A stretch of 64,000 nucleotides of DNA from an uncultured Gammaproteobacteria bacterium (GCA_964530005.1 CAZGZD010000001.1:33541-97540); one strand, 5' to 3'. Counted from the stretch's first letter, positions 16,324 to 62,599 are shown. Notes: a model not told the origin generated them from the sequence alone. Program-made: numbers and translations.

Positions 16324-16354
16324 AGACTTAGTATGAAGCAAGCTAAACTAAGAA

Positions 16355-18800: not shown

Positions 18801-18828
18801 ACTCTTTTGCAACTTTCATCTTAAAAAA

Positions 18829-18955
18829 TCTCTTTTGCTACTTTTGAAGTAGTCTTGCGACTTGTGAAAGTAATATAGAGTCTGTTGCCGATAATATTGA
18901 AGGGTGTCCCGCGAGCTTCTTTGGGCAATGCGGGAGGGTGGCCCTCAAAATTGAG
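18829..18955 (+). repeat. Divergent copy A of a 4-copy structured intergenic element
   Basis: It shares the 5' arm ctcttttgctacttttg...cttgcgacttg and a 3' gggagggtggccctcaaaa with copies at 20128, 47935 and 54598. Its central insert is larger. Confidence 0.35.
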
Positions 18956-19079
18956 GCATTACAGATTCATATTACGAAACTCGGAGCAAGAACTTTAAAA
19001 GTAGGAAGTAAGCTATTAAAATTAAAATCATAATAATTCAATGATTTATCCCCATCCACCAGTATAATATCTACATATT

Positions 19080-20127: not shown

Positions 20128-20236
20128 AACTCTTTTGTTATTTTTGTTTGTTTTTGCGACTTGGGAGGCCCGTCCTGAGCTAAGTCGAAGGATTGGAGGG
20201 AACCCACTGGAGTCAAAAATAAACAAAAGTAAAATC
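20128..20236 (+). repeat. Copy B of the structured intergenic element
   Basis: Sequence ctcttttgttatttttg...ttgcgacttgggaggcccg[tcctgagctaa]gtcgaaggattggagggaacccactggagtcaaaaataaacaaaagtaaaa. The T-rich 5' arm pairs with the A-rich 3' arm. Confidence 0.5.
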
Positions 20237-20263
20237 AGTATTTAAATACTATCTAAAATAAAT

Positions 20264-23170: not shown

Positions 23171-23183
23171 TCTCTATTATTTA

Positions 23184-23822
23184 TCAATAAATTTCAACTT
23201 CAATACTTGCAGATTTAGGTCGGACTACTGATTTATTGATATCTATCAACTTGGTTGTCTCGAGCCCCTGCTTGGGTAAGATACGCACCTTATATTTACC
23301 TTTTTTACGGGCTGCAAATGTAATGGCAAAGAGCTGATCTCCACCAAATATAGATTGTGTCTTGCTACTAATTTCTTTATAGCCTGTCACCGTGGCATAT
23401 CCCTTTGCATCACGAGGCAGAATTCTAAAATCCGCAATTGACGATGTCGCACCCACATAGGATAGCCCAGTCCCATCATAGCCAAATAGCACATCATACG
23501 CCACGATATCAAACTCAGCCGAATTCACACTCACCAAAAAGCTCACCTGGCGACCTACTGGGACCCGACTTGCACCACTTCCAAATACGATAGTAAATGC
23601 GCCTTTGTCGATCTTTTTAATAGCTGCCGCGACTTTTTTAAGAGGTGGAGGGGTCGAGGCTGTATCAGTCGGTACTGGTTTGTATGCAGATTTCTCCGTG
23701 GCGAGCTTAGCGCGATATACATATACCCCAAATCCCAGTATCACGATAAGCACAGATATGAAGGCGTAGAGCCCTATACGGCTACCTGTCTGTCGCGATA
23801 TGTGTGTGTCTGAATTATTCAT
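23184..23822 (-). CDS. Membrane-anchored cohesin-like domain protein
   Basis: 212 aa with an N-terminal TM helix. The pattern VSFLVSVNSAEFDIVAYDVLFGYDGTGLSYVG...LFAITFAARKKGKYKVRI is cohesin-like. Confidence 0.5.
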   Translation of the reverse strand: MNNSDTHISRQTGSRIGLYAFISVLIVILGFGVYVYRAKLATEKSAYKPVPTDTASTPPPLKKVAAAIKKIDKGAFTIVFGSGASRVPVGRQVSFLVSVNSAEFDIVAYDVLFGYDGTGLSYVGATSSIADFRILPRDAKGYATVTGYKEISSKTQSIFGGDQLFAITFAARKKGKYKVRILPKQGLETTKLIDINKSVVRPKSASIEVEIY

Positions 23823-23838
23823 ATTGAAATTTGAATTA

Positions 23839-37100: not shown

Positions 37101-40100
37101 GGCATCAGCGGCTGCCGGTGTAGGAGTTGGTTCAGGCGCCGCGGGAGGCTCTACGGGAGTAGGAACCAGGGGCTCAGCTGGTGTTGGTTCTGCCGGTGGA
37201 GCTGGTGGCTCCGAAGGGGCTGGTGTGGGCGGTTCAGGGGTTGGCGGTACGGCTGGCTCCGGTGCAGGAGAAGATTCAGATGCTGCTGGTTCAGGTGGCG
37301 CAGCTGGCTCGGGGGCTGCAGTTTCAGTTGGTTCAGGAATTGGCGGAGGAGGTGTAGTCGGCGCAGGAGTTGGTGTGGGAGGGATTGGTGTGGGAGGGAT
37401 TGTTGAATTTCTAAACATAACACTTGCACGACCATCTTTGACGATAAACCCCTCGACAACCCACCCTCCGGATATTTTGCCATTAATATATGTAGCTAGT
37501 CCACTATGAACACTATCTAGTTGGGCACTGATCTGATCTTTGACTAAAGAATGCCTTCCTTTAAAAGTTAGCTCTTTTTTAGTCGGTACAAGCATATTAT
37601 GATCATCTGTCTTATACTGCACATCAACCAAAGTCGTCTTGCCGCCCCTTATCAATCCATGGCCTTCTATACTACCTTCGATAATCAATCTGTCTCCATC
37701 GATTCTAACCTTGCCGTCTTTCATCTCATCTAGACCTTTTTCTTTCAGTTTTTCATCTATGGGCTTTTTGGCAAATTCATTTAGATTTTCTTCAGTAAAT
37801 TCGATCCTAGCCTCAGCTCCTACAACATCGGCAAGCGTTTTTTCGATACTTACAAAAATGTCTCTCCCCGGCTCTGTCTCAAGTGGAATCGATGCTGGAG
37901 CTTCTGTTGGTGTGCCAGGAGTGGGTTCTGGAGGGGTTCTGGTTAGAGGGGTTGAGGGAGTTGTAGGTCGAACTGGGGCTGGGGGAATCTCACCTGTGTC
38001 GATTCGCCTCAAGATATCAAGAGCTGCTTGAGATACCACTTCTGACCGGATCTTATTTATCCATTTTTTAGCCTCATCTTTTTCATCATAATCAAATTTG
38101 CCCGTTGTGTCTTTGGGATCTGGCAATAATCCCTGATGGCGGCTGGCGCTGGATATCCAGACATTTGGAGTAAATTCTGGTATGTGCAAACTTATGACCT
38201 GTGGGCCACCCTCGACAACAGCCGCAATATGCGCAAATCCTGTGTCATTGCTAAGCACCAGATCTTGATGCTTAAGCAGCACACTGTTTTGCGCCATATC
38301 TCCTGTTATAAATCTAGCATTCTCAATACCCCCAAACACTCGCTCCAATTCCTCCTTCGAATAACTACCCTTGGTATTGATGAATATGTTTACTTCAGTA
38401 TCCGGCTGATCTGCCCGTATTTTCTCAATTACCTGCTTCCATTGATCTAGTGAATATCTTTTTGCAGTCAAGCTTGCCTCAATGACTATACCAACTTGTT
38501 TTTTGGACGAATCGATCTTATATTTATCGACAAGCTCTTGATACATCTCATCTGCATTAGCTGGAAGATCTATTCGTGGACGTGCGTGTACCAGACTCGG
38601 CGGAGATATGCTCAACAACTCTGCCAGGTATTGACTGAATCGATCATCCCCTGCTCTATCATAATCATACAGACCAACTGATGATGAGAATAAGTCTGAG
38701 GCTATAATAGTGTTATTGTCAGATCGTGCAACTCTGGGCTGCGCCGAATGATGGTCGAACTCAAAAACTACAGCATTTTGGATACCCTTGCTGCGAATGA
38801 GTTCCATCGACCTTTCCACTCCTTCGTATCGTTTCGTCGTTTCTAATTGAATATCTAAGTTCTGTACAAAAGGTTCAAGTAGCTTGTGGACATTGGATGG
38901 AGCAACTATGGTAACGTTTTTATCGGCGCCGCGGCTTCTTAAAAGTTTGGTAATACCATCTACATATGCTGTTGATAAGACTGTATCGCCTATTGCTCCT
39001 GATAATACGATATATACATCATCAGTCGCCATAAATGCGGAGTGCAGCTCTGCCAGAAGTCTTTCGCCGTCTGCAGATTCAAGAGCACCTCCGCCCTCCA
39101 CAAAATCAGCTATTCTTTTGGGTTTGCCTTCGGGACCGCGATATCTATCTACACTAAAGTCTCCATAGTTAAAGTATGTAATTTGCTCTTGTGCCTCCTG
39201 AAGTGGTTCAAGCGCAAACCGTGGGTAAAATGGCACAGGAATGATTGGGATATATGGTATGCCAGCCGGTGCTTCAGCCCCAGGTGGAATAAGCTCCATC
39301 GGAGGAGTCGGACGAAGGTTCAGGATAGTCTCATGACGAGGTTCGTGAAAGTGGATAGAGTTGTCCCCCCAATGGTAGTGAGGATCCTGGATCTGAAACG
39401 CAGACCCACCCAGCGATCTATGATCCCATTGAGTGATTACCCCGTCCTTAATCCGTATATCTCTAAGGATGACGCGGTCATGGTCTGAGGCATTGACCCA
39501 ATCCCATTTGTCACCATGTTGCACAAGTTCTGTCCCCTTGAGCATATGTACCTTGTGACCATCTATCAGTTGGGTCACCATGTGTCCTCGCTCTATACCA
39601 TTTCCAAAATACTCAGGTATAAGTTGGTCACCGTGGCGTATTGTCCAGCCTTCTCGCAACAGCTCGTCTCTCACTTCACGACCAAGTTGGGTATTTTCAT
39701 GAAATCCACGTCCAGCCAGCAAGTGTCCGTTGTGCATCAGCTTAAAATACGGCACCTCCTCATGTGCTGGCATACCGGGTAGCCCTGTGTTGGGACCGAG
39801 CTTCTCACCTGTTATACGATTATAGAATCCGATCTCGTTGGATGCCCAGTTATGCCTACCTTCGATATTTGAGGTGAGCCTCACAGTATTGTTTTCTCCT
39901 TTATGCCCCATAAAAAGCTCGTTTAGTCGCTGTTGTAGCAGTGTGTCTCTTGGGGGTCCCGCTTGATGTAAAGCCTCCACCACATGTTGTGCTGCCTGCT
40001 GCATACCGACTCCTACACCAAGTCCCGCTATTCCACCCACAGCACCGGCAAGGGCCACACTACCGCGGCGATAGCGACGAAACGCTCTATCTGCCTGAGT

Positions 40101-42308
40101 TCTCTCTTGCGTGTATTGCTCATTAAATTGATTTACCCTGTCGGTGAAAACCCTCGTCTGATCTGGTGTCAAGGAACCTCGCACTTGATCTACAAACTGT
40201 TCAAGCCGCAGTTGCTCTTGCTCAAGTACCGTAGATCCACCATATTGAATAAGCCCAATACCTTGTTCGTGTCCGAAATTGAGTCGGGATTCAATCTCAG
40301 CCGCCCGATCAAGTATCTGTTCTGCCGTAAGACCATCGAGTGTCAAAAGATCCTCTACTGAGCGCAGAGGAATCTGAAATCTCTCCATACGCTCTCGACG
40401 ATGAGAATTGGGTGCTACTTCGCCTCCCATCTGTCGCTGTGCTCCGTGCATCCATCTATCTCCTGATACTTCGCGGCCGCGACGAACAGCCGCAATAAGT
40501 GCACCAGATATTGTCCCCACGCCTGGAGCTGCCATACTTGCTGCACGAAGTGCCGTGCCGGGTAGCCGAAGTACACCCGCTGTCACAATTGCAAGCCCTG
40601 CGCCAACAAGCGCGGGATTGGCGGCATTCTGCCCACCTCGTGTGCGACGAATACGAATCACTTGTCGATCTACCCAACTCAATCTGGCTTGAGAATCATA
40701 TGCCCAATCGGCATTGGCAAGATTTATCGTGATCTGGTCTCGCCTATGATCAAGATAATCAAGGGCTGCTTGATGCTCTGATGCTGTAGCACGTATCTGT
40801 TGTCCCATCTCATATATATCAGTTGCAAAAAGGCTCGCCATACTTGCAAACTCATTGGCATCTCTACCAAAAAGAGCAGCAATATCTGCATTATCCTGAT
40901 TGTTGGCAACAAAATCGCGAATACGTTCCTGTACTTGGGCTGGCTCGGTGATCGTCCCATCTACAATAGGTCGTAGAATTTGCTCAATGAGCGCATCTTT
41001 TAGCGGGCCTTGGGCTTGTCTGAGGTCTTCACCTGTTCGAAGCCTTCCTCCTGTAAGATGCCCTATCTTAGCTGCGCTGGCTGCCTCAAAGTCTCCTCGC
41101 TGCGCGTCGACCTCTGCAACCTCTAAATTACTTCTTACTCCCCGATTGACCATCTGCATGGTGAGATACGAGGTATTGTTCTCAATCATAGCTCCACGTA
41201 CCTGAAAGTAAAATTTATTTTCATAGTAATCTTCGCCCAGGCGGAATTTGATACGACGGAAAAATCGTCGAGTGCGACCACGACTGCCTAGTATAGGGGT
41301 GGTGAGTTCATCCTGTACGGCTTCCTTTGCCATGAGACGAGATCTTTTTTCAACATCGATCTCGCGACTTGCAAGCGTACCCTCAACTCGAAGGTCTTCA
41401 ATAGAAGGAGGCACTGGTTCCAGATCAATGGGCTCAATGGGTGGCGATCCAGGCTCATGCGGGGGAGGAATCCCAGGACTTGGGGTTGGAGTAGGAGCTG
41501 GAGGAGCTGGTGGAATTTCCGGGGGCTCAATTGGCATTGGAACTCCCGGACTCCCGGGTGGAAGTGGTGCAACAGGCGGGGCTCCGGGCACATCAGGCGG
41601 CGGCGGTCCAGCTGGTGGTGGAACTGGAACCCCAGGCCCACCAGGAACTACTGGTCGGACAGGAGGTGCGGGCGGTGGTGGAACATCGGGTGGGGGCGGG
41701 GGCGCTATTTTTTTCTCTGGAGGAAGAAAAAGCTCTTTTCTTTTATTTATCATACCAGCCGCGATAACCTGGAGTTCATCATCTGTAAGTGGATGGCCAT
41801 ATTCTTCTTCAAGTCGGGCCATAACCGCATCATTTGCACGGATATCAGCCATCTCAACATAGATACGGGAAGTGTACTTATTGGGATCTTTTAGACGTCT
41901 GCGCTCATACTCTTTTCTATTTTGAATAAGTACATCTTTATAGTGCTCATACTTATCAAGCTCTAAAGCGTCCAATTCTTCAGAATTAATCCTCTCGTCA
42001 AGATACGTCACAATATCATCAACAGGCGCTCTCTCATCTATGCTGTAGACCAAATCACTGTCTTCTCGATGATCGACAAATCGGCGTCTTGTACGTCCTC
42101 TATTCTTGTCGATGGTTTTCTCTTTGAGTCTTTTGAGTGTCTCCTGACCATGAAGTTCACGAGCACTTAATGTGGCAGGATCTGCTGCCAAAAATATTTG
42201 AGCTCCCTCGTTAAATGCGCGAAGGACTTCTGCCCGCTCATAAGCAGGTGCGGCTTCTGGCCGGCGTAATGGTGGAGTTCCTTCAACTGGTGAGGGCCCG
42301 TCTGGCAT
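31104..42308 (-). CDS. Giant multidomain protein (3734 aa). It has a Pro-rich N-terminus, a polyproline tract, possible membrane hairpins, a GT9 heptosyltransferase-like domain, three PP2C-type modules (the middle one degenerate) and a duplicated C-terminal domain.
   Basis: A single uninterrupted 11.2-kb ORF with recognisable domain motifs along its whole length (see the sub-features below). Opposite-strand ORFs are low-complexity shadows. Confidence 0.9.
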   Translation of the reverse strand: MPDGPSPVEGTPPLRRPEAAPAYERAEVLRAFNEGAQIFLAADPATLSARELHGQETLKRLKEKTIDKNRGRTRRRFVDHREDSDLVYSIDERAPVDDIVTYLDERINSEELDALELDKYEHYKDVLIQNRKEYERRRLKDPNKYTSRIYVEMADIRANDAVMARLEEEYGHPLTDDELQVIAAGMINKRKELFLPPEKKIAPPPPPDVPPPPAPPVRPVVPGGPGVPVPPPAGPPPPDVPGAPPVAPLPPGSPGVPMPIEPPEIPPAPPAPTPTPSPGIPPPHEPGSPPIEPIDLEPVPPSIEDLRVEGTLASREIDVEKRSRLMAKEAVQDELTTPILGSRGRTRRFFRRIKFRLGEDYYENKFYFQVRGAMIENNTSYLTMQMVNRGVRSNLEVAEVDAQRGDFEAASAAKIGHLTGGRLRTGEDLRQAQGPLKDALIEQILRPIVDGTITEPAQVQERIRDFVANNQDNADIAALFGRDANEFASMASLFATDIYEMGQQIRATASEHQAALDYLDHRRDQITINLANADWAYDSQARLSWVDRQVIRIRRTRGGQNAANPALVGAGLAIVTAGVLRLPGTALRAASMAAPGVGTISGALIAAVRRGREVSGDRWMHGAQRQMGGEVAPNSHRRERMERFQIPLRSVEDLLTLDGLTAEQILDRAAEIESRLNFGHEQGIGLIQYGGSTVLEQEQLRLEQFVDQVRGSLTPDQTRVFTDRVNQFNEQYTQERTQADRAFRRYRRGSVALAGAVGGIAGLGVGVGMQQAAQHVVEALHQAGPPRDTLLQQRLNELFMGHKGENNTVRLTSNIEGRHNWASNEIGFYNRITGEKLGPNTGLPGMPAHEEVPYFKLMHNGHLLAGRGFHENTQLGREVRDELLREGWTIRHGDQLIPEYFGNGIERGHMVTQLIDGHKVHMLKGTELVQHGDKWDWVNASDHDRVILRDIRIKDGVITQWDHRSLGGSAFQIQDPHYHWGDNSIHFHEPRHETILNLRPTPPMELIPPGAEAPAGIPYIPIIPVPFYPRFALEPLQEAQEQITYFNYGDFSVDRYRGPEGKPKRIADFVEGGGALESADGERLLAELHSAFMATDDVYIVLSGAIGDTVLSTAYVDGITKLLRSRGADKNVTIVAPSNVHKLLEPFVQNLDIQLETTKRYEGVERSMELIRSKGIQNAVVFEFDHHSAQPRVARSDNNTIIASDLFSSSVGLYDYDRAGDDRFSQYLAELLSISPPSLVHARPRIDLPANADEMYQELVDKYKIDSSKKQVGIVIEASLTAKRYSLDQWKQVIEKIRADQPDTEVNIFINTKGSYSKEELERVFGGIENARFITGDMAQNSVLLKHQDLVLSNDTGFAHIAAVVEGGPQVISLHIPEFTPNVWISSASRHQGLLPDPKDTTGKFDYDEKDEAKKWINKIRSEVVSQAALDILRRIDTGEIPPAPVRPTTPSTPLTRTPPEPTPGTPTEAPASIPLETEPGRDIFVSIEKTLADVVGAEARIEFTEENLNEFAKKPIDEKLKEKGLDEMKDGKVRIDGDRLIIEGSIEGHGLIRGGKTTLVDVQYKTDDHNMLVPTKKELTFKGRHSLVKDQISAQLDSVHSGLATYINGKISGGWVVEGFIVKDGRASVMFRNSTIPPTPIPPTPTPAPTTPPPPIPEPTETAAPEPAAPPEPAASESSPAPEPAVPPTPEPPTPAPSEPPAPPAEPTPAEPLVPTPVEPPAAPEPTPTPAAADADVTVAPPPPPEPTETVVPEPTAPTEPSTPPSEPSVIDTGDASVTDITPTTRRERIRVRREEKARRKPGAREEAPSSSTEAPATVETTEGAKDARDRVESGEMGPYLWAAGTDKGRVRKNNQDQFTQTRLNDLGESLFILADGMGGHRGGAEASGIATKKVREEYTALRISGMAEEEALRVAIERANEAVYQEGQSNPDLRGMGTTVVAAVLKDDGSYLLANVGDSRGYTIGEMTAVSQITKDHSVAQELADMGRITQEEAYTHERSSTLTRAIGHKPTVDVDIFPGKLNDEAHLLLTSDGLWASTRHDPTTEIWRFAVMSDTPKDMVRSAIMAANEAGGADNTTIVIVKKLSSTPTITTPPSQTSHEATATTGETPRDTVPATPLSEPVEQTETAIPESTVPPVVPVTPSTTAGDADAIVVPPPPAVAAPIVETPVTIRTGATPSTDEAGSVAPAESTVSGADGATVVELEPEAQPSPEASKAIVHVLPRGELAAPTLTPDAKEVLVEIERSRVGSYGETSPGHETVTLNDGFPELKGQPEDARALRVTSEKSHEGHASVYKIESAKNHPDRQEVVVAQDSVRGFTAMFDSGERNPDLPRQQEIATKAADVTTRILTQLPANPSEAQIERAYLQIQAEIGRELALIPNIIGADQEPRMSIGGTVVQLYTRVVNGEEVPSAVIMHLGTGAAYARTGQGELRQITQDDDQLRLDLMQGKITRKQYEYYRKQLDTNTRQGQLRSYLPSRTENARDYFTQRRLLGMFFGAELSPSIHNVDLTPQDSEILIMSRGIKLNLTQDTVKRLSGAGVGEGYGDDPAYLADMIIREAREVAGKNALRSAPDDDLAVATMRIASDGTQPESSHTGSEQSPELAKERVLPVDRVLTQDWDSDLLTQIWQKSIHKPEGDSVARFKDTVHLTDAELAQLDRFVAQARNLHMVFAANEPLWSVFQSVVEEAEGINMTNVNSSEVYIYPNSDPKSNEIRKITAGSSKAAVMVPERVYELYRWEQIIAEVAGTVADYRGELEVPKNPKEFADEINAVNQFIKDSQESLESFRGQGVNLEADVVLDPDLEEAVIVRTENPRESSAATVDQTSEAASRRSTEFNVEDLGGDDLIEGDTGTTGTPADTSSAEADADINRFHTEPGVTPASVTETPATIRTDREPAGDGATFFDQDTAEVSDRRTSDKELKKILRKLEKKGKKSRLRTGVSMAKGVAGKVTRSVRNLGRVGDDVIHRPTEAASTVDEFILTDRIKAFKLNDRPNAEEIDWGWQGPYIVVSGTEQGEQQANQDRVKVLRLDTYGQTVLIAADGVGRHSGGERASQITVDTISEHYSAAKDAGLSSEEALREAVRTTQKHIELANRDEGIDGASTLVVVVLNDDGSYIGANLGDSRAYKVSAGSAEQLTTDAHEVDVDGVALLSKCLGFKSPDTNPEFFNGKLDDIEQIVLTTDGLWDGIEKPYHEVIQELVTRDIAPRDVVSRLIGYSVLSKEGIANMSAVAAKYIAPRTEDTIAVEATAPVATHMPASPDEEMPVSPLVAEPVVPAESTISIPESPLTVEDRTATVNELVTDPDHKYSHGILGRFAGGPMGHGVVFTDGQAAGIIESALTGEQVWSIAFVDEEKNGPEFNARIIGLSTKKGESVFVVTFNDRQGDSRGHSHTDYAIVLPAEDSSRLNPILAKDPSILLDVFKAKYPEYDRSERRRDGHVNRPLQIDPEYPNIQTISESVLERSYGLREHFKSLNLPKADKKEIVTPQPASAEGAPTAAEATVDLGEEVEIKIPGKNVHGKLPAGTYVGETSGGKVPKEVTARSEGHFSDHGPDWLNYVRDGRVDTVNEVLNDVYKARKRLSELVDQQYVRIMPSTVEGNKILRMEFFQDDKAPDSRAEGTFTPAYVEYEMSEVELNKLLGAVRENPDALEELYQAAFPTLDYKPGERMGMRRTPARGFYIIPEGTEAPRYTWKDLDDRDAKIREFFAGLEHYDYQHGPYGTGERFEPQI
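32590..33285 (-). other. PP2C-type module 3
   Basis: QQANQDRV, LIAADGVGRHSGGERAS, GASTLVVVVL, NLGDSRAY and IVLTTDGLWD. The final DN motif reads GIANMSAV (Asp to Ala). Confidence 0.7.
34545..35385 (-). other. PP2C-like module 2 with degenerate catalytic motifs (probable pseudophosphatase)
   Basis: It is colinear with PP2C but reads AMFDSGERN, GGTVVQLY, HLGTGAAYA (in place of GDSR), ILIMSRGI (in place of SDG) and DDDLAVATMRI. Confidence 0.5.
36050..36797 (-). other. PP2C-type Ser/Thr phosphatase module 1 (motifs intact)
   Basis: RKNNQDQF, ILADGMGGHRGGAEAS, GMGTTVVAAVL, NVGDSRGY, ITKDHS, LLLTSDGLW and GGADNTTIVIV. Confidence 0.85.
36985..37410 (-). repeat. P/T/E/A-rich linker containing a ~45-nt imperfect direct repeat
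   Basis: The DNA gtttcagttggttcagg...ggcggaggagg occurs at about 37041-37088 and again at 37306-37352. These encode APPPPPEPTETVVPEP and TPPPPIPEPTETAAPEP. Confidence 0.7.
38125..39025 (-). other. Glycosyltransferase family 9 (ADP-heptose-type heptosyltransferase-like) domain of the giant protein
   Basis: VYIVLSGAIGDTVLSTAYVDGITKLL...VGIVIEASLTAKRYSLDQWKQVIEKI...LVLSNDTGFAHIAAVVEGGPQVISL. The N-terminal xGD motif, the central K/R-x-W motif and the DTGxxH motif fit GT9. Confidence 0.7.
41410..41725 (-). other. Polyproline (FH1-like) tract of the giant protein
   Basis: IAPPPPPDVPPPPAPPVRPVVPGGPGVPVPPPAGPPPPDVPGAPPVAPLPPGSPGVP...PPIEP. Coordinates were located through the reverse complement around 41701-41740. 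Confidence 0.8.
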
Positions 42309-47855: not shown

Positions 47856-47934
47856 CCTTTTATTATAAATAAATACTTTTTCCTCAGTGGTTGAGTTGTC
47901 TATTTAACTTAGTTTTTGTATTGCAAAATTCTCA

Positions 47935-48008
47935 TTTTTCTTTTACTTTCTTCTGCGACACTTGGGAGAGAACCCACTGGAGTCAAAACAAGGAAAAGTA
48001 AAGTGAGT
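47935..48008 (+). repeat. Copy C (minimal form) of the structured intergenic element
   Basis: cttttactttcttctgcgacacttgggagagaacccactggagtcaaaacaaggaaaagtaaag. The arms cttttac and gtaaaag are complementary. Confidence 0.5.
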
Positions 48009-48021
48009 TTACTTCCTTTAA

Positions 48022-48030
48022 TGTTATACT
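48022..48030 (+). promoter_or_regulatory. Extended -10 promoter TGtTATACT
   Basis: It lies 11 nt upstream of the transaldolase ATG at 48042. Confidence 0.45.
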
Positions 48031-48041
48031 ATAAATAACGT

Positions 48042-53811: not shown

Positions 53812-54594
53812 TTATTTTCTGAATAGATCTTTTATGATAAACCGTGTGAGTGTGCGGGGAAATAGCTTCACCACTATCGCCCCTATCTTATTGCTAATAC
53901 CAGGTACAACTGTAGCATCTCCTCTTTTTAATCCATAAAGCGCTGCACGTGCAACGTATTCAGGAGTCATTGCATTGCGGAATCGAGAAGGTTTGGCGTG
54001 AGCGCGCTTAGCAAATCCAGTCGCCACAGGCCCAGGACAAAGAGTTGTCACAATAATACCTTGGTCTTTATATTCTGAGCGAATTCCTTCCGAAAAATTC
54101 AAGACAAAAGATTTGGTCGCCGAATATACACTCATCCATGGCACTGGCTGAAAAGCTGCAGTCGATGCAACATTGAGAATCGCACCACTTCCCTGCTTTA
54201 CCATATCAGCAATAAAAAGATGAGTAAGCTCAACAAGCGAGGCAATATTCAATTGGATCATCTTGATCTGCTCATCTTTTGAAATTTCAGAAAATCGACC
54301 GGATAACCCATACCCTGCATTATTTATCAAAATATTGACCGTGAGCTTTGTTTTTTTGATCTCTCTATAGAGTTTTTCAGCTGAATCTGAACTACTAAGA
54401 TCAGTCGCCAATACAGTTACTTTTACATAATTATTTTTTAATTCTTGTGCGATCTTTTTAAGCTTGCCTTCTGACCTCGCAACAAGAATGAGATTGCAGT
54501 TTTGGGCCGCCAAGTGCTTTGCAATCTCGTAGCCGATCCCGCCTGAGGCGCCAGTCACAAGCGCTGTTTTGCCTTGAAAGTAGTAGTTTTTCAT
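53812..54594 (-). CDS. Short-chain dehydrogenase/reductase (SDR)
   Basis: ALVTGASGGIGYEIA (TGxxxGxG), NNAG, and the catalytic tetrad YSATK. Confidence 0.85.
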   Translation of the reverse strand: MKNYYFQGKTALVTGASGGIGYEIAKHLAAQNCNLILVARSEGKLKKIAQELKNNYVKVTVLATDLSSSDSAEKLYREIKKTKLTVNILINNAGYGLSGRFSEISKDEQIKMIQLNIASLVELTHLFIADMVKQGSGAILNVASTAAFQPVPWMSVYSATKSFVLNFSEGIRSEYKDQGIIVTTLCPGPVATGFAKRAHAKPSRFRNAMTPEYVARAALYGLKRGDATVVPGISNKIGAIVVKLFPRTLTRFIIKDLFRK

Positions 54595-54597
54595 ACA

Positions 54598-54690
54598 TTT
54601 TGTTACTTTTGCTTATTTTTGCGACTTGGGAGGCCCGGTCGAAAGACTGGGAGGGAACCCACTGGAGTCAAAAAGAAGTAAAAGTAAAGC
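54598..54690 (+). repeat. Copy D of the structured intergenic element, with a GAAA-capped inner hairpin
   Basis: ttacttttgctt...gcgacttgggagg cccggtc gaaa gactggg agggaacccactggagtcaaaaagaagtaaaagtaa. G:U pairs are compatible only with plus-strand RNA. Confidence 0.5.
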
Positions 54691-54695
54691 TATTT

Positions 54696-55382
54696 CTATA
54701 AATCAATTTTTCTCTCCCCGTACTTCTCAAAATATTCCTCAATCAATTTTTTAAGCTCAGAATCTGCGTTTTGTTTTTCCACAACTTCAGGCAAGAGATC
54801 AAGAAGATTGCTCATTGCGAAGTACGCAATTCCCTTATTTCGACAATACTCCCCCACTGTCTGCCCGTCATCACGTCGCTCATTTCGATCGGTCAGGATC
54901 ACAACAGTGATTTCTCTGATGCCAACTTCTTTTAGTTTATCTATGCCAGAAAAAAGTGATCCCCCGGTTGTCACGATGTCCTCAACTATTACAGTCTTTC
55001 CACGAGGTACACCCAAAAAGTATCGGTCAGCCGGATCCCCATGTTCTTTCGGCTCTTTTCTACCTTGGGCCAGTGCATACTTGCCTTTTGCCAAATCTGG
55101 CCTCGATTTGGCCCATTTGTACTGCATGATTGTTGCGAGCTTTGTCCCACCATCTGGTATGCCATAAATACTTTCGTGCTCGATATTATTATCTGCAAGA
55201 TATGCGAGTACGAAGTCTGATAATTTGTCGGTCAGATATACATCATCTGCGATACGCCTCCAATTCACATATGTCGGCGATTTGCGGCCGTGCTTGAAGG
55301 TAATAAGATCGCGCGTTAAACCTACAATATTATTTTCAATAATGAGATTATTAAAAGCTTGCTGATCGAAGTTTTTTGCCAT
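54696..55382 (-). CDS. pyrE: Type I phosphoribosyltransferase, probably orotate phosphoribosyltransferase
   Basis: VIVEDIVTTGGS is a PRPP-binding loop. Length and layout are OPRT-like. Confidence 0.6.
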   Translation of the reverse strand: MAKNFDQQAFNNLIIENNIVGLTRDLITFKHGRKSPTYVNWRRIADDVYLTDKLSDFVLAYLADNNIEHESIYGIPDGGTKLATIMQYKWAKSRPDLAKGKYALAQGRKEPKEHGDPADRYFLGVPRGKTVIVEDIVTTGGSLFSGIDKLKEVGIREITVVILTDRNERRDDGQTVGEYCRNKGIAYFAMSNLLDLLPEVVEKQNADSELKKLIEEYFEKYGERKIDL

Positions 55383-55437: not shown

Positions 55438-55510
55438 GTCCTCGTAGCTTAATGGATAGAGCATCGGATTGCGGATCCGAAGGTTGGGCGTTCGAGTCGC
55501 CCCGAGGACG
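55438..55510 (+). tRNA. tRNA-Arg (anticodon GCG), CCA not encoded
   Basis: Hand-folded 73-nt cloverleaf. The acceptor stem is GTCCTCG/CGAGGAC and the D stem GCTT/GAGC, with A20. The anticodon stem is TCGGA/TCCGA with loop TTGCGGA. The T arm is GGGCG-TTCGAGT-CGCCC. The discriminator is G, followed by CA, not CCA. Confidence 0.85.
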
Positions 55511-55527
55511 CACATTTTTTGTTTAAG

Positions 55528-57663: not shown

Positions 57664-57882
57664 TTATGATTTGACGACAGCTTTATAGCCAGTTGCCTTT
57701 ACCTGCTGGATGATCTTGTCTATCTCGATTTTCTCTACATCGTACTCGATCTCTACCTCTTGCTTAGCATAGCTTGTCTGTACTTTTTTTACTCCATCAA
57801 GATCCTCAAGGTCAAAATCAATATTCATCGCACACGAGGTGCAGTGCATTCCTTCAATTTGTAGCTTTACTTTTTTTACCAT
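57664..57882 (-). CDS. copZ: Copper chaperone CopZ (HMA domain)
   Basis: The ATG at 57882 gives MVKKVKLQIEGMHCTSCAMNI. It overlaps the upstream TGA by 1 nt (TGATG). Confidence 0.85.
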   Translation of the reverse strand: MVKKVKLQIEGMHCTSCAMNIDFDLEDLDGVKKVQTSYAKQEVEIEYDVEKIEIDKIIQQVKATGYKAVVKS

Positions 57883-58907
57883 CACATTACATCAATCACA
57901 CCTCTGTACATGCCCATCGAGCAGTTGAAGGCTATCTGGCCTGTATTTGTCGGTGTAAACTGCACTGACTCAGATCCATTCGGCTGGAGATTGCGCTCTA
58001 TACCAAGTGCAGGTATGCGAAATGCAGATGCGCACGAATATACCCCAGTTGACTTGAGATTTAGTTTAACTGGCATATCTTTTTTCACCTTTATATTTGT
58101 TGGGCTGTAGCCACTTGAGGTAACTGTAATATCTACATTTTGCACTCCATTCACTACTTTAGCCGCGGCTCCACTGCTATTTGATGATTGGCTTATCTGC
58201 ACTATATTTTGTGCCAAAGACTGCAGAGTAAAATCAGACCCTGTAGCCACGAGTGCTGAATTGACCGACACAATCCCAAGGTACAGTACTGCAAATGCAG
58301 CGATTTTGAGAAACCTTTGCTTGAAGTTGTCACCCAGTAGCGTCGTGACAAATCCAACACCAAAAAATAATGGTGTCGTACCAAGTACAAAGATACCCAG
58401 GATCAAAGCTCCAGTCAGTCCACTTGCACTGCTTATTGCGAGAGCCTCCATAGCAAGCGTCGTGCCACATGGAATAAAAATAGTCATGGCTCCCAATATG
58501 GCTGGCGCAAAAATATCGCGGCTTTTGGATTGATTTCTGATTTTACGCGTCAAAAATCGAGGTGGCTGAATCACCACGTAGCGAAAGATTGGATGGACAT
58601 TGAGCAAGTTGAGAGAGATTGCGATCATATACAAACCCGCAATAAACTGCACAACAATCTGAGTCGTTTGATTTATCCCAATCGCTCCCCCAAATGCCCC
58701 AAGCACAAATCCCAAAGCAGTATAAGCAATCAGTTTACTGATCAGAAAAGATACTGTCGGAAATATTGTGTGCTTCGGATTCTTACTACTTTCGAGATCT
58801 GCGTCTTCACGAGCCGCGATAATTGAAGCAAGAAGTCCTCCTTGAACTGCAAGACAGGTAAGCCCGCCAACTGTCAGCCCTGTAATAAATACAACCCAGA
58901 GATTCAT
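57882..58907 (-). CDS. DsbD_2/TauE-like membrane protein fused to a C-terminal cupredoxin-like domain
   Basis: N-terminus GLTVGGLTCLAVQGGLL, polytopic. The C-terminus VDITVTSSGYSPTNIKVKKDMPVKLNL...FNCSMGMYRGVIDV is similar to 61138..61518. Confidence 0.6.
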   Translation of the reverse strand: MNLWVVFITGLTVGGLTCLAVQGGLLASIIAAREDADLESSKNPKHTIFPTVSFLISKLIAYTALGFVLGAFGGAIGINQTTQIVVQFIAGLYMIAISLNLLNVHPIFRYVVIQPPRFLTRKIRNQSKSRDIFAPAILGAMTIFIPCGTTLAMEALAISSASGLTGALILGIFVLGTTPLFFGVGFVTTLLGDNFKQRFLKIAAFAVLYLGIVSVNSALVATGSDFTLQSLAQNIVQISQSSNSSGAAAKVVNGVQNVDITVTSSGYSPTNIKVKKDMPVKLNLKSTGVYSCASAFRIPALGIERNLQPNGSESVQFTPTNTGQIAFNCSMGMYRGVIDVM

Positions 58908-58912
58908 AAGTC

Positions 58913-61135
58913 TTATATTTTAACTCTTTTTAAAAGTAATGAATTGGTCACGACTGATATCGAGCTTGTTGCCATAGCTACAGATGCAAATATAGGATTT
59001 AATAATATATGAAAAAATGGATACAATAGGCCCATCGCAACAGGAATCAAGATAATATTGTACCCAAATGCCCACACAAGATTCATCCTTATTGTCCGCA
59101 TGGTCTTTTTGGAAAGATCGATAGCCACAACTACAGACTTAAGATCTTTATTTATAAGTGTAATATCTGCGGCTTCTATTGCCACATCAGTGCCTGAGCC
59201 AATCGCAATACCGATGTCGGCTGCAGCAAGTGCAGGCGCATCGTTTATCCCGTCCCCTACCATTGCCACACGAATACCTTTTTCTTGGATTTTTCTTATT
59301 TCAGCCTCTTTTTTATCAGGCAATACCTCAGACAATACATTTTTTATTCCGAGTTTGCTCGCGATTGCATCTGCTGCACGCTTATTGTCGCCTGTCATCA
59401 TGATCACATCAATTCCTCGCTTCTGAAGAGCGGAAACTGTTGAAATTGCAGATTCCTTGACCGTATCAGCAACTGCAATGAGCCCGACTAAGTGCCCATC
59501 AACAGCCAAAAGTATCACTGTCTTTCCCGCACGCTCAAGAGTGCTAATCTGTCCCTCCGCATGCTCATATTCAATCTTTTCTTTTTCCATAAGTCGACGA
59601 TTTCCTAAGAAAGTTTTGTTTTTTCCGATTATCCCTTCAACTCCGTGTCCTGCAATTGCTTGAAACTTCGAAACAGTCCCAAGTTTTATTTTTCTTTTCT
59701 CAGAATAATTTACAATAGATTCGGCCAGTGAGTGCTCAGACCCTTTTTCAACAGATGCAGCAAGACGCAATACTTCATCCTCTGACGTCTTACTTATAGA
59801 GACCACATCTGTCACCTCAGGTCGTCCATTTGTGAGCGTTCCTGTCTTGTCAAATACCACCGCTCTAATCTTATTCGCAATCTCCAGGCTCTCAGCATCT
59901 CGAATCAATATTCCACGCTGCGCCCCAATGCCAGTCCCGACCATGATCGCTGTCGGTGTAGCAAGCCCCATGGCACAGGGACAGGCAATGATAAGAACAG
60001 CGACCGTATTGAGCATTGCCAGAAGAAAAGCAGGGCTTGGACCAAATACATACCATACGCCAAAAGTCAGCCACGCAAGCATAATCACAATTGGCACGAA
60101 ATAGGATGAAACTGTATCAGCCAGTCTCTGAATTGGCGCTTTGCTCCCCTGCGCTTCTTCAACGAGAGTAATAATCTGGGAAAGCATAGTATCTGCACCG
60201 ACTTTTGTTGCGCGATACGTAAAAGAACCCGATTTATTCATCGTTGCCCCAACGACTGTGTCTCCCGACGCCTTATCGACCGGAATACTCTCACCCGTAA
60301 TCATAGACTCATCCACGCTTGATTCGCCCTCAATAACTTCGCCGTCAACTGGTATTTTCTCACCAGATCTGACTCGAATAATATCACCGATCTGCACATC
60401 CTCAATCGGAATATCTATGTCGTGTCCATCTCTTACGACCCGCGCAGTCTTGGCCTGAAGCCCGATAAGTTTGCGGATTGCGCTGGACGTCCCTATCTTT
60501 GCTTTTGCTTCAAAATACCGACCTAGGAGTATGAGTGCAATCACAATTGTTGCCACATCAAAGTACGGCATCGGCTCCATACCGAGATTCATCAAAATAC
60601 GTGGAAAAAGTATTATAAAAACAGAATAAAGGTAAGCAACAGTGGTGCCGAGGGCAACCAAAGTATCCATGTTGGCTGTTCGATGTCGAAGCGCTGGAAT
60701 TGTGGCAAGATAAAATTCACGTCCAGCCCAAAACTGAATTGGCGTCGCAAGTAAAAGCTGGACATAAAAGTTTTTAAGAAGCTCCGGCGCAGTATTCATC
60801 AGGCCTGGAAAGCTACCCCACAAGATAAGTCCACCCGCTATAAGACTCGCGACTACTTTGTTTTTTAAGACCTTAAGCTCTTTTCTCTTTTCAGCCGCTT
60901 GGACATCATCACTTTTCTCCGTGAGCTCAAGCTTGTATCCTATTTTTTCTATTGAATCCGCAAGCTGTGCAGGTGTGCAAATAGTATCATCGTACGTAAC
61001 CGTTGCTTTCTCAGTTGCAAGATTCACTACGGCATCATGCACGCCCTGAGTCTTCTTAAGAGCCCGCTCCGTTAGCCGTATGCATGATGCGCAGTGCATG
61101 CCCTTCACTGAAAATGTTTTTCTTATCTTACTCAT
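58913..61135 (-). CDS. copA: Copper-translocating P1B-type ATPase
   Basis: HMA GMHCASC, the CPC TM motif, DKTGTLT, and GDGINDAP. I prefer the ATG at 61135 (MSKIRKTF). Confidence 0.9.
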
Positions 61136-61137
61136 AT

Positions 61138-61518
61138 CTACTTTACAATTATTTTCCCGTGAAACATATTCATGCCGCAAGCATAGTCATACTCGCCACT
61201 TTTTTGTGGAGTGAGGATAATGGGCACCATTTTATTTAATGGCAGATATTTTCTTATTCGAAAATCAGGGAGTACCACTTCTTCCAGACATGATGATGGA
61301 TCACGTCGCGTGAAGTTAATGGTTGTTAGACGACCTTTGGGAATTGAGATTACTTGTGGGGAATACCCACCCTCAACTGTAATATCTACACTACCAGTAT
61401 CCACAACTACCGACACTCCCTCTTTTTTCATAAGGAAGAACCAATAGGTTAAGGCAATACCGCAAATACTCGCAACTACGACTAATATTTTGTCCATACT
61501 CATACTCAGTACCCCCAA
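61138..61518 (-). CDS. Membrane-anchored cupredoxin-like domain protein
   Basis: An N-terminal TM helix, then [26 protein letters not shown]...[14 protein letters not shown]. Confidence 0.6.
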
Positions 61519-62156
61519 TTTTTATACCACTGCCTCATCTCATTTATCTCTTTGGTCTGAGCATCAATAATGTTTTGAGCAAGCTGCCTCATCTCTTCTC
61601 TATTTGTTCCCCGCTTAAGCATCGTGGCCATCATGACCGCCATCTGGTGATGCGGGATCATCTCTTCAATAAATGCCTTGTCGAAATTATCAGCATTTTT
61701 CAGTGTCGCAATATCAGACTCATCTCCCATCATTCCGCCATGCATGCGCCCACCCATCATACCTGCTCCAGAATTAGCATCATCACTCGTGTCTTCTGGT
61801 ACATCTTGCCCATACCAACTTTTGTACCAATTCTTCATTTGGGTAATCTCCTCAGATTGTGTTTTTTTGATATTTTCAGATAGCTTTTTAATTTCAGAAT
61901 GTTGAGCTTTTGTCTGTGCAATATCTGCCATGGTTATTGCATCTTCATGATGAGGTATCATCTGCTCTATAAAATGCTCATCAATATTCTCCATCATGCT
62001 TCCTCGATAGTTTTGAGTGCCTATACCCATCATGCGCATCATTCCGATATTTTGAGTATTTACCGAACTTGAAGCTATTATCACAGTAATTAAGCTTCCG
62101 GCTAGTAGACCAATGATTCCATATAATATTGCTTTATTATTTTCCATACGTATCAC
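61506..62156 (-). CDS. DUF305 family (copper-resistance-associated) protein
   Basis: Duplicated MIPHHEDAITMA and MIPHHQMAVMMA motifs, with an N-terminal TM/signal. Confidence 0.75.
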   Translation of the reverse strand: MIRMENNKAILYGIIGLLAGSLITVIIASSSVNTQNIGMMRMMGIGTQNYRGSMMENIDEHFIEQMIPHHEDAITMADIAQTKAQHSEIKKLSENIKKTQSEEITQMKNWYKSWYGQDVPEDTSDDANSGAGMMGGRMHGGMMGDESDIATLKNADNFDKAFIEEMIPHHQMAVMMATMLKRGTNREEMRQLAQNIIDAQTKEINEMRQWYKNWGY

Positions 62157-62194
62157 CTTCTTTCTGTTATTTGTTAAAAATAAATTTATTCATG

Positions 62195-62599
62195 CTATTT
62201 ACCTCTATTTTCGACTACAGCAAAGGCGAAAATAGCAATCATAATTAATTGGCAGGCTATACAAATTGGGCAGATTACTTTCAGTTGAATAAGCTCTATG
62301 TATCCAATTGACAGGCAGAACAGCAGCCCAAATGTTGCCATCGAAAGAAGCAATTTTTTCCTGTGCCATAGTGCCGAAAAAAATATAACAATATAGCCTA
62401 TTAGCCCATACAGCGGGGTCGGTATGCCAAATGTCTTAGCTACAGGTCCTGATATGACAGCATTGCAGTTTACTATGCTGTTTACGTAGCATGGCTGAAA
62501 AGCGGGGCGATAAAATTGCTGCCACAGTAGATAAAGCGCCAATAAGATGCCAATACTTGATAAGACTTTAATGAGTGAATATATCTGTGCTCGTTTCAT
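62195..62599 (-). CDS. Vitamin K epoxide reductase (VKOR) family membrane protein
   Basis: 134 aa with four hydrophobic helices, loop cysteines CYVNSIVNC, and CPICIAC in the last helix. Confidence 0.55.
   Translation of the reverse strand: MKRAQIYSLIKVLSSIGILLALYLLWQQFYRPAFQPCYVNSIVNCNAVISGPVAKTFGIPTPLYGLIGYIVIFFSALWHRKKLLLSMATFGLLFCLSIGYIELIQLKVICPICIACQLIMIAIFAFAVVENRGK

What the first reader, a model, noticed from the sequence alone, without database searches (positions are those of the whole stretch)
54598..54690. Four-copy structured intergenic element, all on the plus strand, with a conserved core and a variable inner hairpin
The copies lie at 18829-18955 (divergent), 20128-20236, 47935-48008 and 54598-54690. 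All share three parts: a T-rich 5' arm (cttttac/ctttt-g), the core gcgac(a)cttgggag(g) ... (g)gaacccactggagtcaaaa, and an A-rich 3' arm (aaaagtaaa) complementary to the 5' arm. Between tggg and ccca the content varies. The minimal copy has a 6-nt loop (agagaa). Copy D has a hairpin, cccggtc-GAAA-gactggg, with a GNRA loop. Copy B has the same hairpin plus an 11-nt insertion. G:U pairs in the outer stem (ttacttttGctt / aagTaaaagtaa) and in the inner hairpin work only for plus-strand RNA. The orientation is the same regardless of flanking gene direction. That argues against a simple leader or terminator and for a small RNA gene family or a MITE-like mobile repeat. I do not recognise it as a known Rfam family.
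Basis: seen in the sequence. Interest (0 to 1): 0.65.

Follow-up and report, generated by a model that had tools for sequence, protein, structure and literature searches.

The report
Modular hairpin repeat family in a CPR bacterium
The reported element is one copy of a previously undescribed family of about 80-190-base hairpin-forming repeats that come and go between genes in an uncultured Patescibacteria-like bacterium; it most likely behaves as a small selfish repeat, not as a gene-specific regulator.

Summary
The observation mostly holds. Copies B (20132-20239), C (47931-48008) and D (54597-54694) share an exact 19-mer (0.04 expected by chance), a GCGAC..TTGGGAG box and complementary T-rich and A-rich arms. 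Copy A is not a diverged copy. It has the same arms around an unrelated interior of about 130 nt and runs to 19016.

Relatives about 92-96% identical added 10 more loci and a third interior class. All units fold into rod-like hairpins, more stable on the plus strand in 13 of 14. No Rfam family matches.

The elements lie between unrelated housekeeping genes in tandem, divergent and convergent arrangements, so they are not leaders, riboswitches or terminators. Of nine loci comparable between two lineages, five differ in presence or absence and one has swapped interior class. At another locus a different interior sits inside identical arms.

At all 14 loci the plus strand lies on the C-rich strand, whatever the gene direction.

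Best reading: a lineage-specific, non-autonomous modular hairpin repeat, like REP, BOX, MITE or IS200/IS605-derived elements. It probably acts as a single strand, and its parts are shuffled by recombination between copies. The enzyme that moves it and any transcript remain unknown.

The parts
54597..54694 (+). Copy D, class I unit (the reported finding). 5' arm 54598-54621, box GCGAC 54621-54625, TTGGGAGG 54626-54633, inner hairpin CCCGGTC-GAAA-GACTGGG 54634-54651, conserved 3' core AGGGAACCCACTGGAGTC 54652-54669, 3' arm 54670-54689. It lies between the start of an SDR gene (53812-54594, -) and the stop of a phosphoribosyltransferase gene (54696-55382, -).
   Evidence: (110.6 bits)
20132..20239 (+). 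Copy B, class I unit with a longer inner hairpin (CCCGTCCT-GAGCTAAGTCGA-AGGATTGG). It lies between divergent rpmB (-) and an M50 peptidase gene (+).
   Evidence: 99 bits
20104..20131 (+). 5' module of copy B: GATTTAAGA-type repeats, then an A-run and CTC. The same module (GATTTAAGAAAAAAGCC) is part of the segment inserted at the Vut_1|RibD_C locus of a sister contig.
47931..48008 (+). Copy C, class I unit that has lost the inner hairpin by deletion between TGGGAG direct repeats. Its outer stem is degenerate. It lies between divergent GH18 (-) and transaldolase (+) genes.
   Evidence: (60.9 bits)
18829..19016 (+). Copy A, class II unit. It has the same arms and GCGAC box but an unrelated interior of about 130 nt that forms a long rod (-75 kcal/mol on the plus strand, -55 on the minus). 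It lies between DsbB (+) and peptide deformylase (+).
18803..18822 (+). Remnant of an older 5' arm (ACTCTTTTGCAACTTTCATC) just upstream of copy A. The related MAG carries a comparable remnant in front of its own element at this locus.

Best explanation
The finding is one member of a lineage-specific family of modular, hairpin-forming intergenic repeats. The host is an uncultured bacterium whose nearest named relatives are Microgenomates (Patescibacteria/CPR).

A unit consists of:
- a short A/T-rich 5' module (GATTTAAGA-type motifs, an A-run, CTC);
- a T/G-rich 5' arm (TTTTGYTACTTTTG plus about 10 variable bases);
- the box GCGAC;
- one of at least three unrelated interior modules (class I is the reported core);
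- the box (T)GGAG(T)C;
- an A-rich 3' arm complementary to the 5' arm.

On one strand the whole unit folds into a rod-like hairpin held together partly by G:U (G:T) pairs.

Shown here:
- It is a dispersed repeat, roughly one per 10-20 kb.
- It has a strand-specific structure.
- It is gained, lost and swapped between genomes that are 92-96% identical.
- It sits in every kind of intergenic context.
- In every case its plus strand is on the C-rich strand.

Inferred mechanism:
- It is a non-autonomous selfish element whose active form is a single strand. This may be DNA exposed at the replication fork, as for IS200/IS605-derived elements and REPs. Less likely, it is RNA.
- The uniform orientation arises in one of two ways. 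Insertion may be tied to one replication strand. Alternatively, only copies whose weaker-folding strand lies on the lagging-strand template survive.
- Recombination or template switching between copies, anchored on the shared arms and boxes, shuffles interiors and inner hairpins.
- The mobilising enzyme is unknown.
For: Repeat family:
- The exact 19-mer occurs 3 times in the window.
- A covariance-model search found 11 class I units in the window and the related MAG, and more on sister contigs.
- Class II has 3 members and class III has 2, all with the same arms.

Structure:
- 94.7% of arm and box cells pair, and the pairing is register-specific.
- Class II has 16 pairs with compensatory changes among only 3 sequences.
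- The outer arm covaries: TTAC pairs with GTAA, and CTAC with GTAG.
- The plus strand is more stable in 13 of 14 units, by up to 20 kcal/mol, and also in the 3 units folded with DNA parameters.

Not gene-specific:
- Neighbouring genes include DsbB, def, rpmB, M50 peptidase, GH18, transaldolase, SDR, PRTase, hisD/hisC, OTCase, DprA, Rpe, carA and SufBCDS.
- Tandem, divergent and convergent gene arrangements are all seen.

Turnover between lineages W (window) and M (MAG), about 95% identical near the window:
- OTCase|X, Rpe|X and SufC|SufB are filled in M and empty in W.
- Vut_1|RibD_C is filled in W and empty in M.
- DprA|RibD_C holds an element in M and a 327-aa gene in W.
- The DsbB|def locus holds class II in W and class I in M.
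- SufD|SufS has the same arms but a different inner hairpin.
- hisD|hisC has identical locus-specific arms but class I in M and class III in a third lineage.
- Logan contigs end inside the elements.

Orientation:
- At all 14 loci, in 5 separate contig regions, the plus strand is on the C-rich strand. Skew on the element strand is -0.05 to -0.09 over the 64-kb window and the 15-21-kb sister contigs.
- Third-codon-position skew is -0.04 to -0.17 even where most genes share the element's strand.
- About 61% of coding bases lie on the opposite strand.
Against: - No mobilising gene was seen. Pfam scans and precomputed Pfam tables covering well over 200 kb of these genomes show no transposase, RAYT or Y1 enzyme. 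They show only a serine recombinase in a prophage-like island.
- Filled and empty sites do not differ by a clean insertion with a target duplication. Flanking bases are also rewritten.
- Under the IS200/IS605 precedent the active strand should be on the lagging-strand template, which has the G-rich, leading-strand sequence. Here the better-folding strand is on the other strand.
- The class I core is perfectly conserved while the arms drift. Each class also has conserved unpaired blocks. Both hint at a sequence-specific function, such as a protein or RNA partner, that a purely selfish model does not explain.
- The orientation test rests on GC skew from contigs of 8-64 kb, not on a mapped origin and terminus.
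Confidence: 0.6

Rival explanations
1. It is a multi-copy small-RNA gene family. Each unit would carry its own promoter and produce a structured plus-strand RNA, in three classes, that acts in trans or binds a protein.
For: - The G:U pairing is specific to the plus strand.
- The 5' arm contains TGnTACTTT, which fits an extended -10 consensus. It is preceded by a conserved A-rich module that travels with the element.
- The class I 3' core is invariant in all but one of the complete copies, while the arms and inner hairpin vary.
- Classes II and III have conserved unpaired blocks as well as covarying stems.
Against: - The putative -10 lies inside the paired, covarying outer arm, so a transcript starting after it could not form the full rod.
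- No consistent -35 is present.
- No terminator-like site follows the elements.
- All 14 loci lie on the presumed lagging strand, so transcription would run head-on into replication.
- Loci are gained and lost between genomes 92-96% identical.
- No Rfam family matches.
- No expression data were available.
Confidence: 0.2
2. It is a classical MITE: a cut-down insertion sequence moved as double-stranded DNA by a DDE transposase that recognises the terminal inverted repeats (the arms).
For: - The arms are inverted repeats shared by three classes with unrelated interiors, as in MITE families built on one transposase.
- Loci differ in presence or absence.
- The elements are small and intergenic.
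Against: - No target-site duplication appears at four comparisons of filled and empty sites.
- The interior core is better conserved than the termini.
- The units show strong strand asymmetry and a uniform orientation relative to GC skew. Neither is expected for double-strand cut-and-paste.
- The conserved 5' module has no 3' counterpart.
- No transposase was seen in the sequence examined.
Confidence: 0.1
3. It is a cis-regulatory RNA (leader, riboswitch, attenuator or terminator) of the adjacent gene.
For: Several copies lie 24-63 nt upstream of a same-strand gene: def, M50 peptidase, transaldolase, hisC.
Against: - The neighbouring genes are functionally unrelated.
- Four copies are antisense to both neighbours or lie between convergent genes.
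- Downstream genes have a TATAAT-like box between the element and the ATG, which would place the element upstream of the promoter rather than in the 5' UTR (read from sequence).
- No terminator consensus is present.
- Orthologous genes in a sister lineage lack the element.
Confidence: 0.03
4. It is a host-recruited DNA site that works in a replication-oriented way, for example by binding a nucleoid, segregation or fork-associated protein. It would be kept for the host's benefit.
For: - Orientation relative to GC skew is uniform at 14 of 14 loci.
- The core sequence is invariant.
Against: - Known polar chromosome motifs are short (8-12 bases), far more numerous, and fixed in position. These units are 80-190 bases, occur about once per 10-20 kb, and are polymorphic between close relatives.
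- Three unrelated interiors share the same arms.
Confidence: 0.07

Closest known systems
IS200/IS605-derived palindrome-associated elements (PATEs), and the single-strand 'peel and paste' transposition of IS608/ISDra2
   Same: They are strand-specific, rely on hairpins, and have no clean terminal duplication. Their orientation is tied to the direction of replication. Small non-autonomous copies are scattered between genes.
   Different: No Y1 (HUH) transposase or TnpB was seen. No conserved 4-5-base target lies on the left flank. The whole unit is one long rod, not two subterminal hairpins. The better-folding strand lies on the presumed leading-strand template, opposite to the IS608 precedent (my own knowledge of that system, not tested here).
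REP / REPIN elements mobilised by RAYT transposases (enterobacteria, Pseudomonas)
   Same: They are intergenic hairpin repeats, numerous, variable between strains, and presumed to act as single strands.
   Different: REPs are 20-40-base palindromes with a conserved 5' tetranucleotide. REPINs are two inverted copies of the same REP. Here the centre is asymmetric and modular, the arms are A/T-rich and drift, and no RAYT gene was seen.
BOX elements of Streptococcus pneumoniae (boxA-boxB(n)-boxC)
   Same: They are modular, with conserved end modules around a variable middle. They are intergenic, have a predicted stable single-strand structure, and have no coding capacity or known mobilising enzyme.
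   Different: There is no sequence relationship and the host phylum differs. The middle here is one of three unrelated modules, not a variable number of one module. I know of no reported replication-strand orientation bias for BOX (my own knowledge).
MITEs such as Correia (Neisseria) or ERIC (enterobacteria)
   Same: They are of similar size, with inverted-repeat ends, intergenic location and differences between strains in presence or absence.
   Different: These units lack a target duplication and are strand-asymmetric. The core is more conserved than the ends, and orientation is uniform relative to GC skew.
Integron attC sites
   Same: They are imperfect, strand-specific hairpins of variable length whose single-stranded form is the active one. 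Their chromosomal orientation relative to replication matters.
   Different: attC sites lie in arrays next to an integrase, each following a cassette gene. These units are dispersed among housekeeping genes, with no integrase and no R/L box pattern.

Membership tests
Any Rfam 15 RNA family (including hammerhead, twister and other small ribozymes, riboswitches, leaders) | A covariance-model match at or near the family's gathering score | tested here: not met
   The only gathering-score hit in the window is tRNA-Arg. With E <= 10 on copies A, B, D and class III, only generic hairpin hits appear at 11-22 bits, against cut-offs of 34-160.
Classical MITE (DDE transposase) | Terminal inverted repeats | tested here: inconclusive
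   The arms are inverted repeats shared by all classes. However, a conserved 5' module has no 3' partner, and the ends are less conserved than the core.
Classical MITE (DDE transposase) | Target-site duplication flanking the insertion | tested here: not met
   Filled and empty sites were compared at OTCase|X, Rpe|X, SufC|SufB and Vut_1|RibD_C. None shows a clean duplication, and the flanks are rewritten.
Classical MITE (DDE transposase) | A parent insertion sequence with the same ends in the genome | not testable with these tools
   Only part of the genome could be fetched, and no transposase was seen in it.
IS200/IS605-derived PATE | Orientation bias relative to replication | tested here: met
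   At 14 of 14 loci the same strand is on the C-rich strand. Which strand is active, and the true fork direction, are inferred from skew only.
IS200/IS605-derived PATE | A conserved 4-5-base target immediately 5' of the left end, and a Y1 transposase in the genome | tested here: inconclusive
   The left flank reads (A)nCTC in about half of the copies but is not constant. No Y1_Tnp or OrfB family appears in the Pfam tables of the fetched contigs.
REP/REPIN-RAYT | A short palindrome (20-40 bases) with a conserved 5' tetranucleotide, in inverted pairs; a RAYT gene | tested here: not met
   The units are 78-188 bases with an asymmetric centre. No RAYT-like gene was seen in the sequence examined.
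Riboswitch / leader | A constant position in the 5' UTR of functionally related genes | tested here: not met
   The neighbours are unrelated and all gene arrangements occur. Orthologous genes in a sister lineage lack the element.
Intrinsic terminator | A G+C-rich stem directly followed by a U-run, downstream of a gene on the same strand | tested here: not met
   The consensus scan finds none on the elements. On the plus strand the base of the stem is followed by an A-run. On the minus strand 7 of 12 units have a U-run, but after an A/U-rich stem base.
Integron attC | An array of cassettes next to an integrase gene | tested here: not met
   The copies are 1-30 kb apart among housekeeping genes, and no integrase was seen next to the copies checked.

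The most novel reading that the evidence does not exclude
The arms and boxes would form a generic single-strand 'carrier' hairpin. It would insert in a replication-strand-specific way by a mechanism not yet described in Patescibacteria. The three interiors would be distinct, previously undescribed functional RNAs or single-stranded DNA modules, for example protein-binding or catalytic ones. They would be exchanged like cassettes between carriers at the conserved GCGAC and GGAG(T)C boxes.
Probability: 0.15. Interest if true: 0.75.

Novelty: new variant of a known kind. Interest (0 to 1): 0.5.

Why it matters
Patescibacteria (CPR) have very small, tightly packed genomes, and I found no description of dispersed structured repeats in them. 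Two full-text literature searches returned nothing relevant.

- **Turnover.** A family that occupies intergenic spacers of 7-20 bases turns over faster than the surrounding genes. It also breaks metagenome assemblies, so it is a practical marker of strain-level change and a cause of fragmented MAGs.
- **Mechanism.** The uniform orientation relative to GC skew, together with strand-specific folding, makes one question testable. Do hairpin repeats in such genomes spread or survive through single-stranded DNA at the replication fork?
- **Interiors.** The cassette-like exchange of three interiors inside the same arms is unusual. If the interiors prove functional, that would add new RNA or DNA modules.

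Tried and rejected
- **Rfam.** I searched at gathering score on the whole window, and at E <= 10 on copies A, B, D and class III. Nothing matched.
- **Small ribozymes.** I considered a hammerhead. Class III has CAGAUGAG and class II has CGCGAAAC, but neither class has both core halves and no hammerhead model scores. I recalled a loose resemblance to twister from memory, but no twister model scored either.
- **Bacteroidetes-type promoter (TTTG / TAnnTTTG) in the 5' arm.** Dropped. The host is Patescibacteria-like and the match is not kept across copies.
- **Sigma-70 promoter and terminator scans.** None falls on the elements.
- **Metagenome scan with an arm pattern** (TTTTGYTACTTTTG N4-12 TTGCGA). 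The listed stretches showed no class I core or matching rod architecture and look like chance matches; part of the listing was cut off.
- **Viral-contig scan with the core 17-mer.** It gave 3 chance matches.
- **Genome-collection scan with the 18-mer.** It gave 7 true copies, all in one MAG, and 7 apparent chance hits.
- **Extra copies in the window.** Other arm-like matches (46684, 57109, 23126, 7188, 19643) lack the rest of the unit; two of them were read and lie in coding sequence.
- **Mutation bias as the source of the G:T asymmetry.** Rejected by reasoning. The G/T-rich version of the hairpin sits on the C-rich strand, the opposite of what strand-biased mutation would produce.
- **Simple inversion between UGGG and CCCA to explain the rearranged copy L013.** The sequence does not fit. 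Only the loop region is inverted relative to the L019 type.
- **Target-site duplications.** I looked at four filled/empty site pairs and found none convincing.

Full report
**1. What is in the window**

The four stretches were read directly.
- B, C and D share the exact 19-mer GAACCCACTGGAGTCAAAA. It occurs three times, all on the + strand, where shuffles give 0.04 matches.
- All three have the 5' box GCGAC(A)CTTGGGAG.
- Around this core lie a T/G-rich 5' arm and an A-rich 3' arm that pair with each other.
- D folds at -35.6 kcal/mol (z = -5.3) and B at -33.4 (z = -2.7). C is no better than shuffled sequence (z = -0.16).

Copy A shares only the arm and TGCGACTTG. Its interior is unrelated, and its 3' arm (AAAAGTAGGAAGTAAG) lies near 19000-19014. 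The unit is therefore 18829-19016, not 18829-18955.

Rfam 15 gives nothing but a tRNA-Arg at gathering score. At E <= 10 on the elements it gives only sub-threshold generic hairpin hits.

**2. The host**

The window's proteins are found on a 119,307-base contig in NCBI/ENA and on many short Logan contigs. The nearest named homologues of its glutamate dehydrogenase are 57% identical. Those of a neighbouring histidinol dehydrogenase are 54-56% identical. They come from Roizmanbacteria, Daviesbacteria, Gottesmanbacteria, Levybacteria and 'Microgenomates/Patescibacteria group'.

The host is therefore a divergent Patescibacteria (CPR)-like bacterium, although the related MAG is labelled 'uncultured Gammaproteobacteria'.

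Three lineages appear:
- W, the window;
- M, the MAG CAYOAI01;
- T, a Logan contig from SRR32910803.

W-T are 96% identical, W-M about 95% and T-M 92% in one shared region.

**3. The family**

A genome-collection scan with the 18-mer found seven true copies, all in MAG M, plus seven apparent chance hits, several of them within plausible coding sequence. A covariance model built from ten copies then found further units in M and on sister contigs of W and T.

Three interior classes share the same arms and boxes.
- **Class I** is the reported core: window B, C and D, eight more copies at loci in M, and further copies on W and T sister contigs.
- **Class II** comprises window A, L016:4857-5022 and L019:263-428. 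Its conserved blocks are TTTAGAG, GAAGGGTG, AAGCCGYATGGCTT, TACAGAYTC and CGCGAAAC.
- **Class III** comprises L123:9323-9450 and L126:12752-12879. Its conserved blocks are TTTGCAGATGAG, GTAGGCGA, GAGCCGTAC and CGATTCCGGAAGTGGAG.

All classes begin with GCGAC and most end with (T)GGAG(T)C next to the 3' arm. Several units also carry a 5' module: GATTTAAGA-type motifs, an A-run and CTC. This module has no 3' counterpart, and it is part of the inserted segment at a polymorphic locus.

The family was not found in the JGI metagenome collection, where 90 arm-pattern hits looked like chance matches. It was not found in viral contigs either. Within the W lineage the density is roughly one unit per 10-20 kb.

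**4. Structure**

- On the class I alignment, 94.7% of arm and box cells form standard pairs, against 46-62% when the partner is slid. Three pairs have changes on both sides.
- Class II is a single long rod, with 16 of 60 pairs showing compensatory double changes among only three sequences.
- The outermost arm positions covary: TTAC with GTAA, CTAC with GTAG.
- The inner hairpin of class I comes in at least five sequence types, all closed by CCC...GGG and most carrying a G:U at the fourth pair.
- With RNA parameters the plus strand is more stable than the minus strand in 13 of 14 units, by up to 20 kcal/mol. The three units folded with DNA parameters also favour the plus strand, by a smaller margin.

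The functional form therefore looks like a single strand of plus polarity, but these data cannot say whether it is RNA or DNA.

Copy C has lost the inner hairpin by deletion between the TGGGAG direct repeats that flank it. A sister strain reads TTGGGAGGGAACCC. One M copy (L013) has the loop of its inner hairpin inverted. Both are typical DNA-level accidents at hairpins.

**5. Context**

The neighbouring genes have nothing in common. They include DsbB, def, rpmB, M50 peptidase, GH18, transaldolase, a short-chain dehydrogenase, a phosphoribosyltransferase, hisD/hisC, OTCase, DprA, Rpe, carA, SufBCDS and Sua5/TsaD.

Units lie between tandem genes in either orientation, between divergent genes, and between convergent genes. 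Where a same-strand gene follows, a TATAAT-like box sits between the element and the ATG. That would place the element upstream of the promoter, not in a leader (read). No promoter or terminator consensus falls on the elements. This excludes a leader, riboswitch or terminator.

**6. Turnover**

Nine loci can be compared between W and M.

| Locus | W | M |
|---|---|---|
| rpmB\|M50 (B) | class I | class I, 1 base different |
| GH18\|transaldolase (C) | class I, hairpin deleted | same core and flanks, 5' arm rewritten |
| SufD\|SufS | class I | same arms, different inner hairpin |
| DsbB\|def (A) | class II | class I, plus a remnant of an older 5' arm |
| OTCase\|X | empty | filled |
| Rpe\|X | empty | filled |
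| SufC\|SufB | empty | filled |
| Vut_1\|RibD_C | filled | empty |
| DprA\|RibD_C | 327-aa gene | element |

At hisD|hisC the same locus-specific arms enclose class I in M and class III in T.

Filled and empty sites do not differ by a clean insertion with a target duplication, because neighbouring bases are also rewritten. Short-read contigs end inside the units. The elements therefore change much faster than the genes around them, by insertion or loss and by exchange of parts between copies.

**7. Orientation**

The pattern is wider than that.
- Wherever several units lie on one contig they are co-oriented.
- At all 14 loci, in five separate contig regions, the plus strand of the element is on the C-rich strand.
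- On the element strand, total GC skew is -0.05 to -0.09 over the 64-kb window and the 15-21-kb sister contigs. Third-codon-position skew is -0.04 to -0.17, including loci where most genes share the element's strand.
- About 61% of coding bases are on the other strand. That fits the usual picture in which the G-rich strand is the leading strand; this step is inference from general knowledge.
- If orientations were random, 14 of 14 would have a probability of about 6 in 100,000.
- The elements themselves are G-rich on the plus strand, so they do not create the skew. Strand-biased mutation would produce the opposite asymmetry.

**8. Interpretation**

The best-supported reading is a lineage-specific, non-autonomous, modular hairpin repeat. 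In behaviour it is closest to REP/REPIN, BOX and IS200/IS605-derived elements.

The single-strand-specific fold and the replication-linked orientation point to a single-stranded intermediate or to selection acting on hairpin formation at the fork. One simple version fits the polarity seen. The more stable (plus) hairpin lies on the leading-strand template, which is rarely single-stranded. The weaker (minus) hairpin lies on the lagging-strand template. Copies in the other orientation would be deleted or cleaved. This is inference, not shown.

Exchange of interiors and inner hairpins inside unchanged arms suggests recombination or template switching anchored on the shared arms and boxes.

I saw no mobilising enzyme in well over 200 kb of these genomes, but most of the genome could not be examined.

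A small-RNA gene family remains possible (about 0.2). The arm contains an extended -10-like TGnTACTTT behind a conserved A-rich module, and each class has conserved unpaired blocks. Against it, that -10 lies inside the covarying stem, no terminator follows, and every copy would be transcribed head-on to replication.

**9. Novelty and verdict**

No Rfam family, no hit outside two close lineages, and no paper in the searchable library on dispersed repeats in CPR bacteria. The kind of thing, an intergenic structured repeat, is well known.

The particular combination is new as far as I can tell: shared carrier arms with three unrelated interiors, cassette-like swaps between near-identical genomes, uniform orientation relative to GC skew, and a CPR host. 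I rate it a new variant of a known kind, of moderate interest.

Noticed in passing
window 31104-42308 (-): A single open reading frame of 3734 amino acids. A sister contig carries the same giant gene running off its end (>2872 aa). Its function was not examined.
   Followed up: no
window 13997-16383: About 2.4 kb present in the window but absent from the related MAG at the syntenic place. It holds two open reading frames (14114-15334 and 15418-16341, both -) with no Pfam match.
   Followed up: partly
window 19040-19079, 20240-20263, 48009-48041: These genes seem to lack a Shine-Dalgarno sequence and have a TATAAT-like box only 5-12 bases before the ATG (for example CCAGTATAATATCTACATATTATG before def). 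This suggests leaderless or near-leaderless mRNAs in this organism.
   Followed up: no
window 55438-55511 (+): tRNA-Arg (anticodon GCG), the only Rfam or ARAGORN hit in 64 kb. It lies between a minus-strand phosphoribosyltransferase gene and a minus-strand MgtC/DUF4010 gene.
   Followed up: yes
window 5385-10818 (+): A 1082-aa protein with no Pfam match, followed by a 731-aa VirD4/TraG/TrwB-like coupling ATPase (DUF87, TrwB_AAD_bind). This may be part of a DNA-transfer or DNA-uptake apparatus.
   Followed up: no
window 22418-25857 (-): Adjacent genes with a cohesin domain (22418-23170) and a dockerin domain (23839-25857). This hints at a cell-surface protein assembly.
   Followed up: no
window 57882-62599 (-): A metal (copper-type) resistance cluster: P-type ATPase with an HMA domain, cupredoxin-domain proteins, DsbD_2, DUF305, VKOR, and a CsoR-like repressor just beyond.
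   Followed up: no
L125/L126 955-3844 (sister contig of the window genome): A small island with a phage replication protein O homologue and a large serine recombinase (Resolvase + Recombinase + Zn_ribbon_recom) next to a PBP gene. It is probably an integrated mobile element. It was the only recombinase seen, and nothing links it to the hairpin repeats.
   Followed up: no
L016:7201-7305 versus L126:11128-12111: Between DprA and the RibD_C/DHFR gene, lineage M has a class I hairpin unit where lineage W has a 327-aa gene of unknown function. This is a gene-sized indel at an element locus.
   Followed up: partly
MAG CAYOAI01 (loci L013-L020): The public record calls this MAG 'uncultured Gammaproteobacteria bacterium'. 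The nearest named homologues of two of its conserved enzymes are all from Microgenomates/Patescibacteria. The label is probably wrong.
   Followed up: partly
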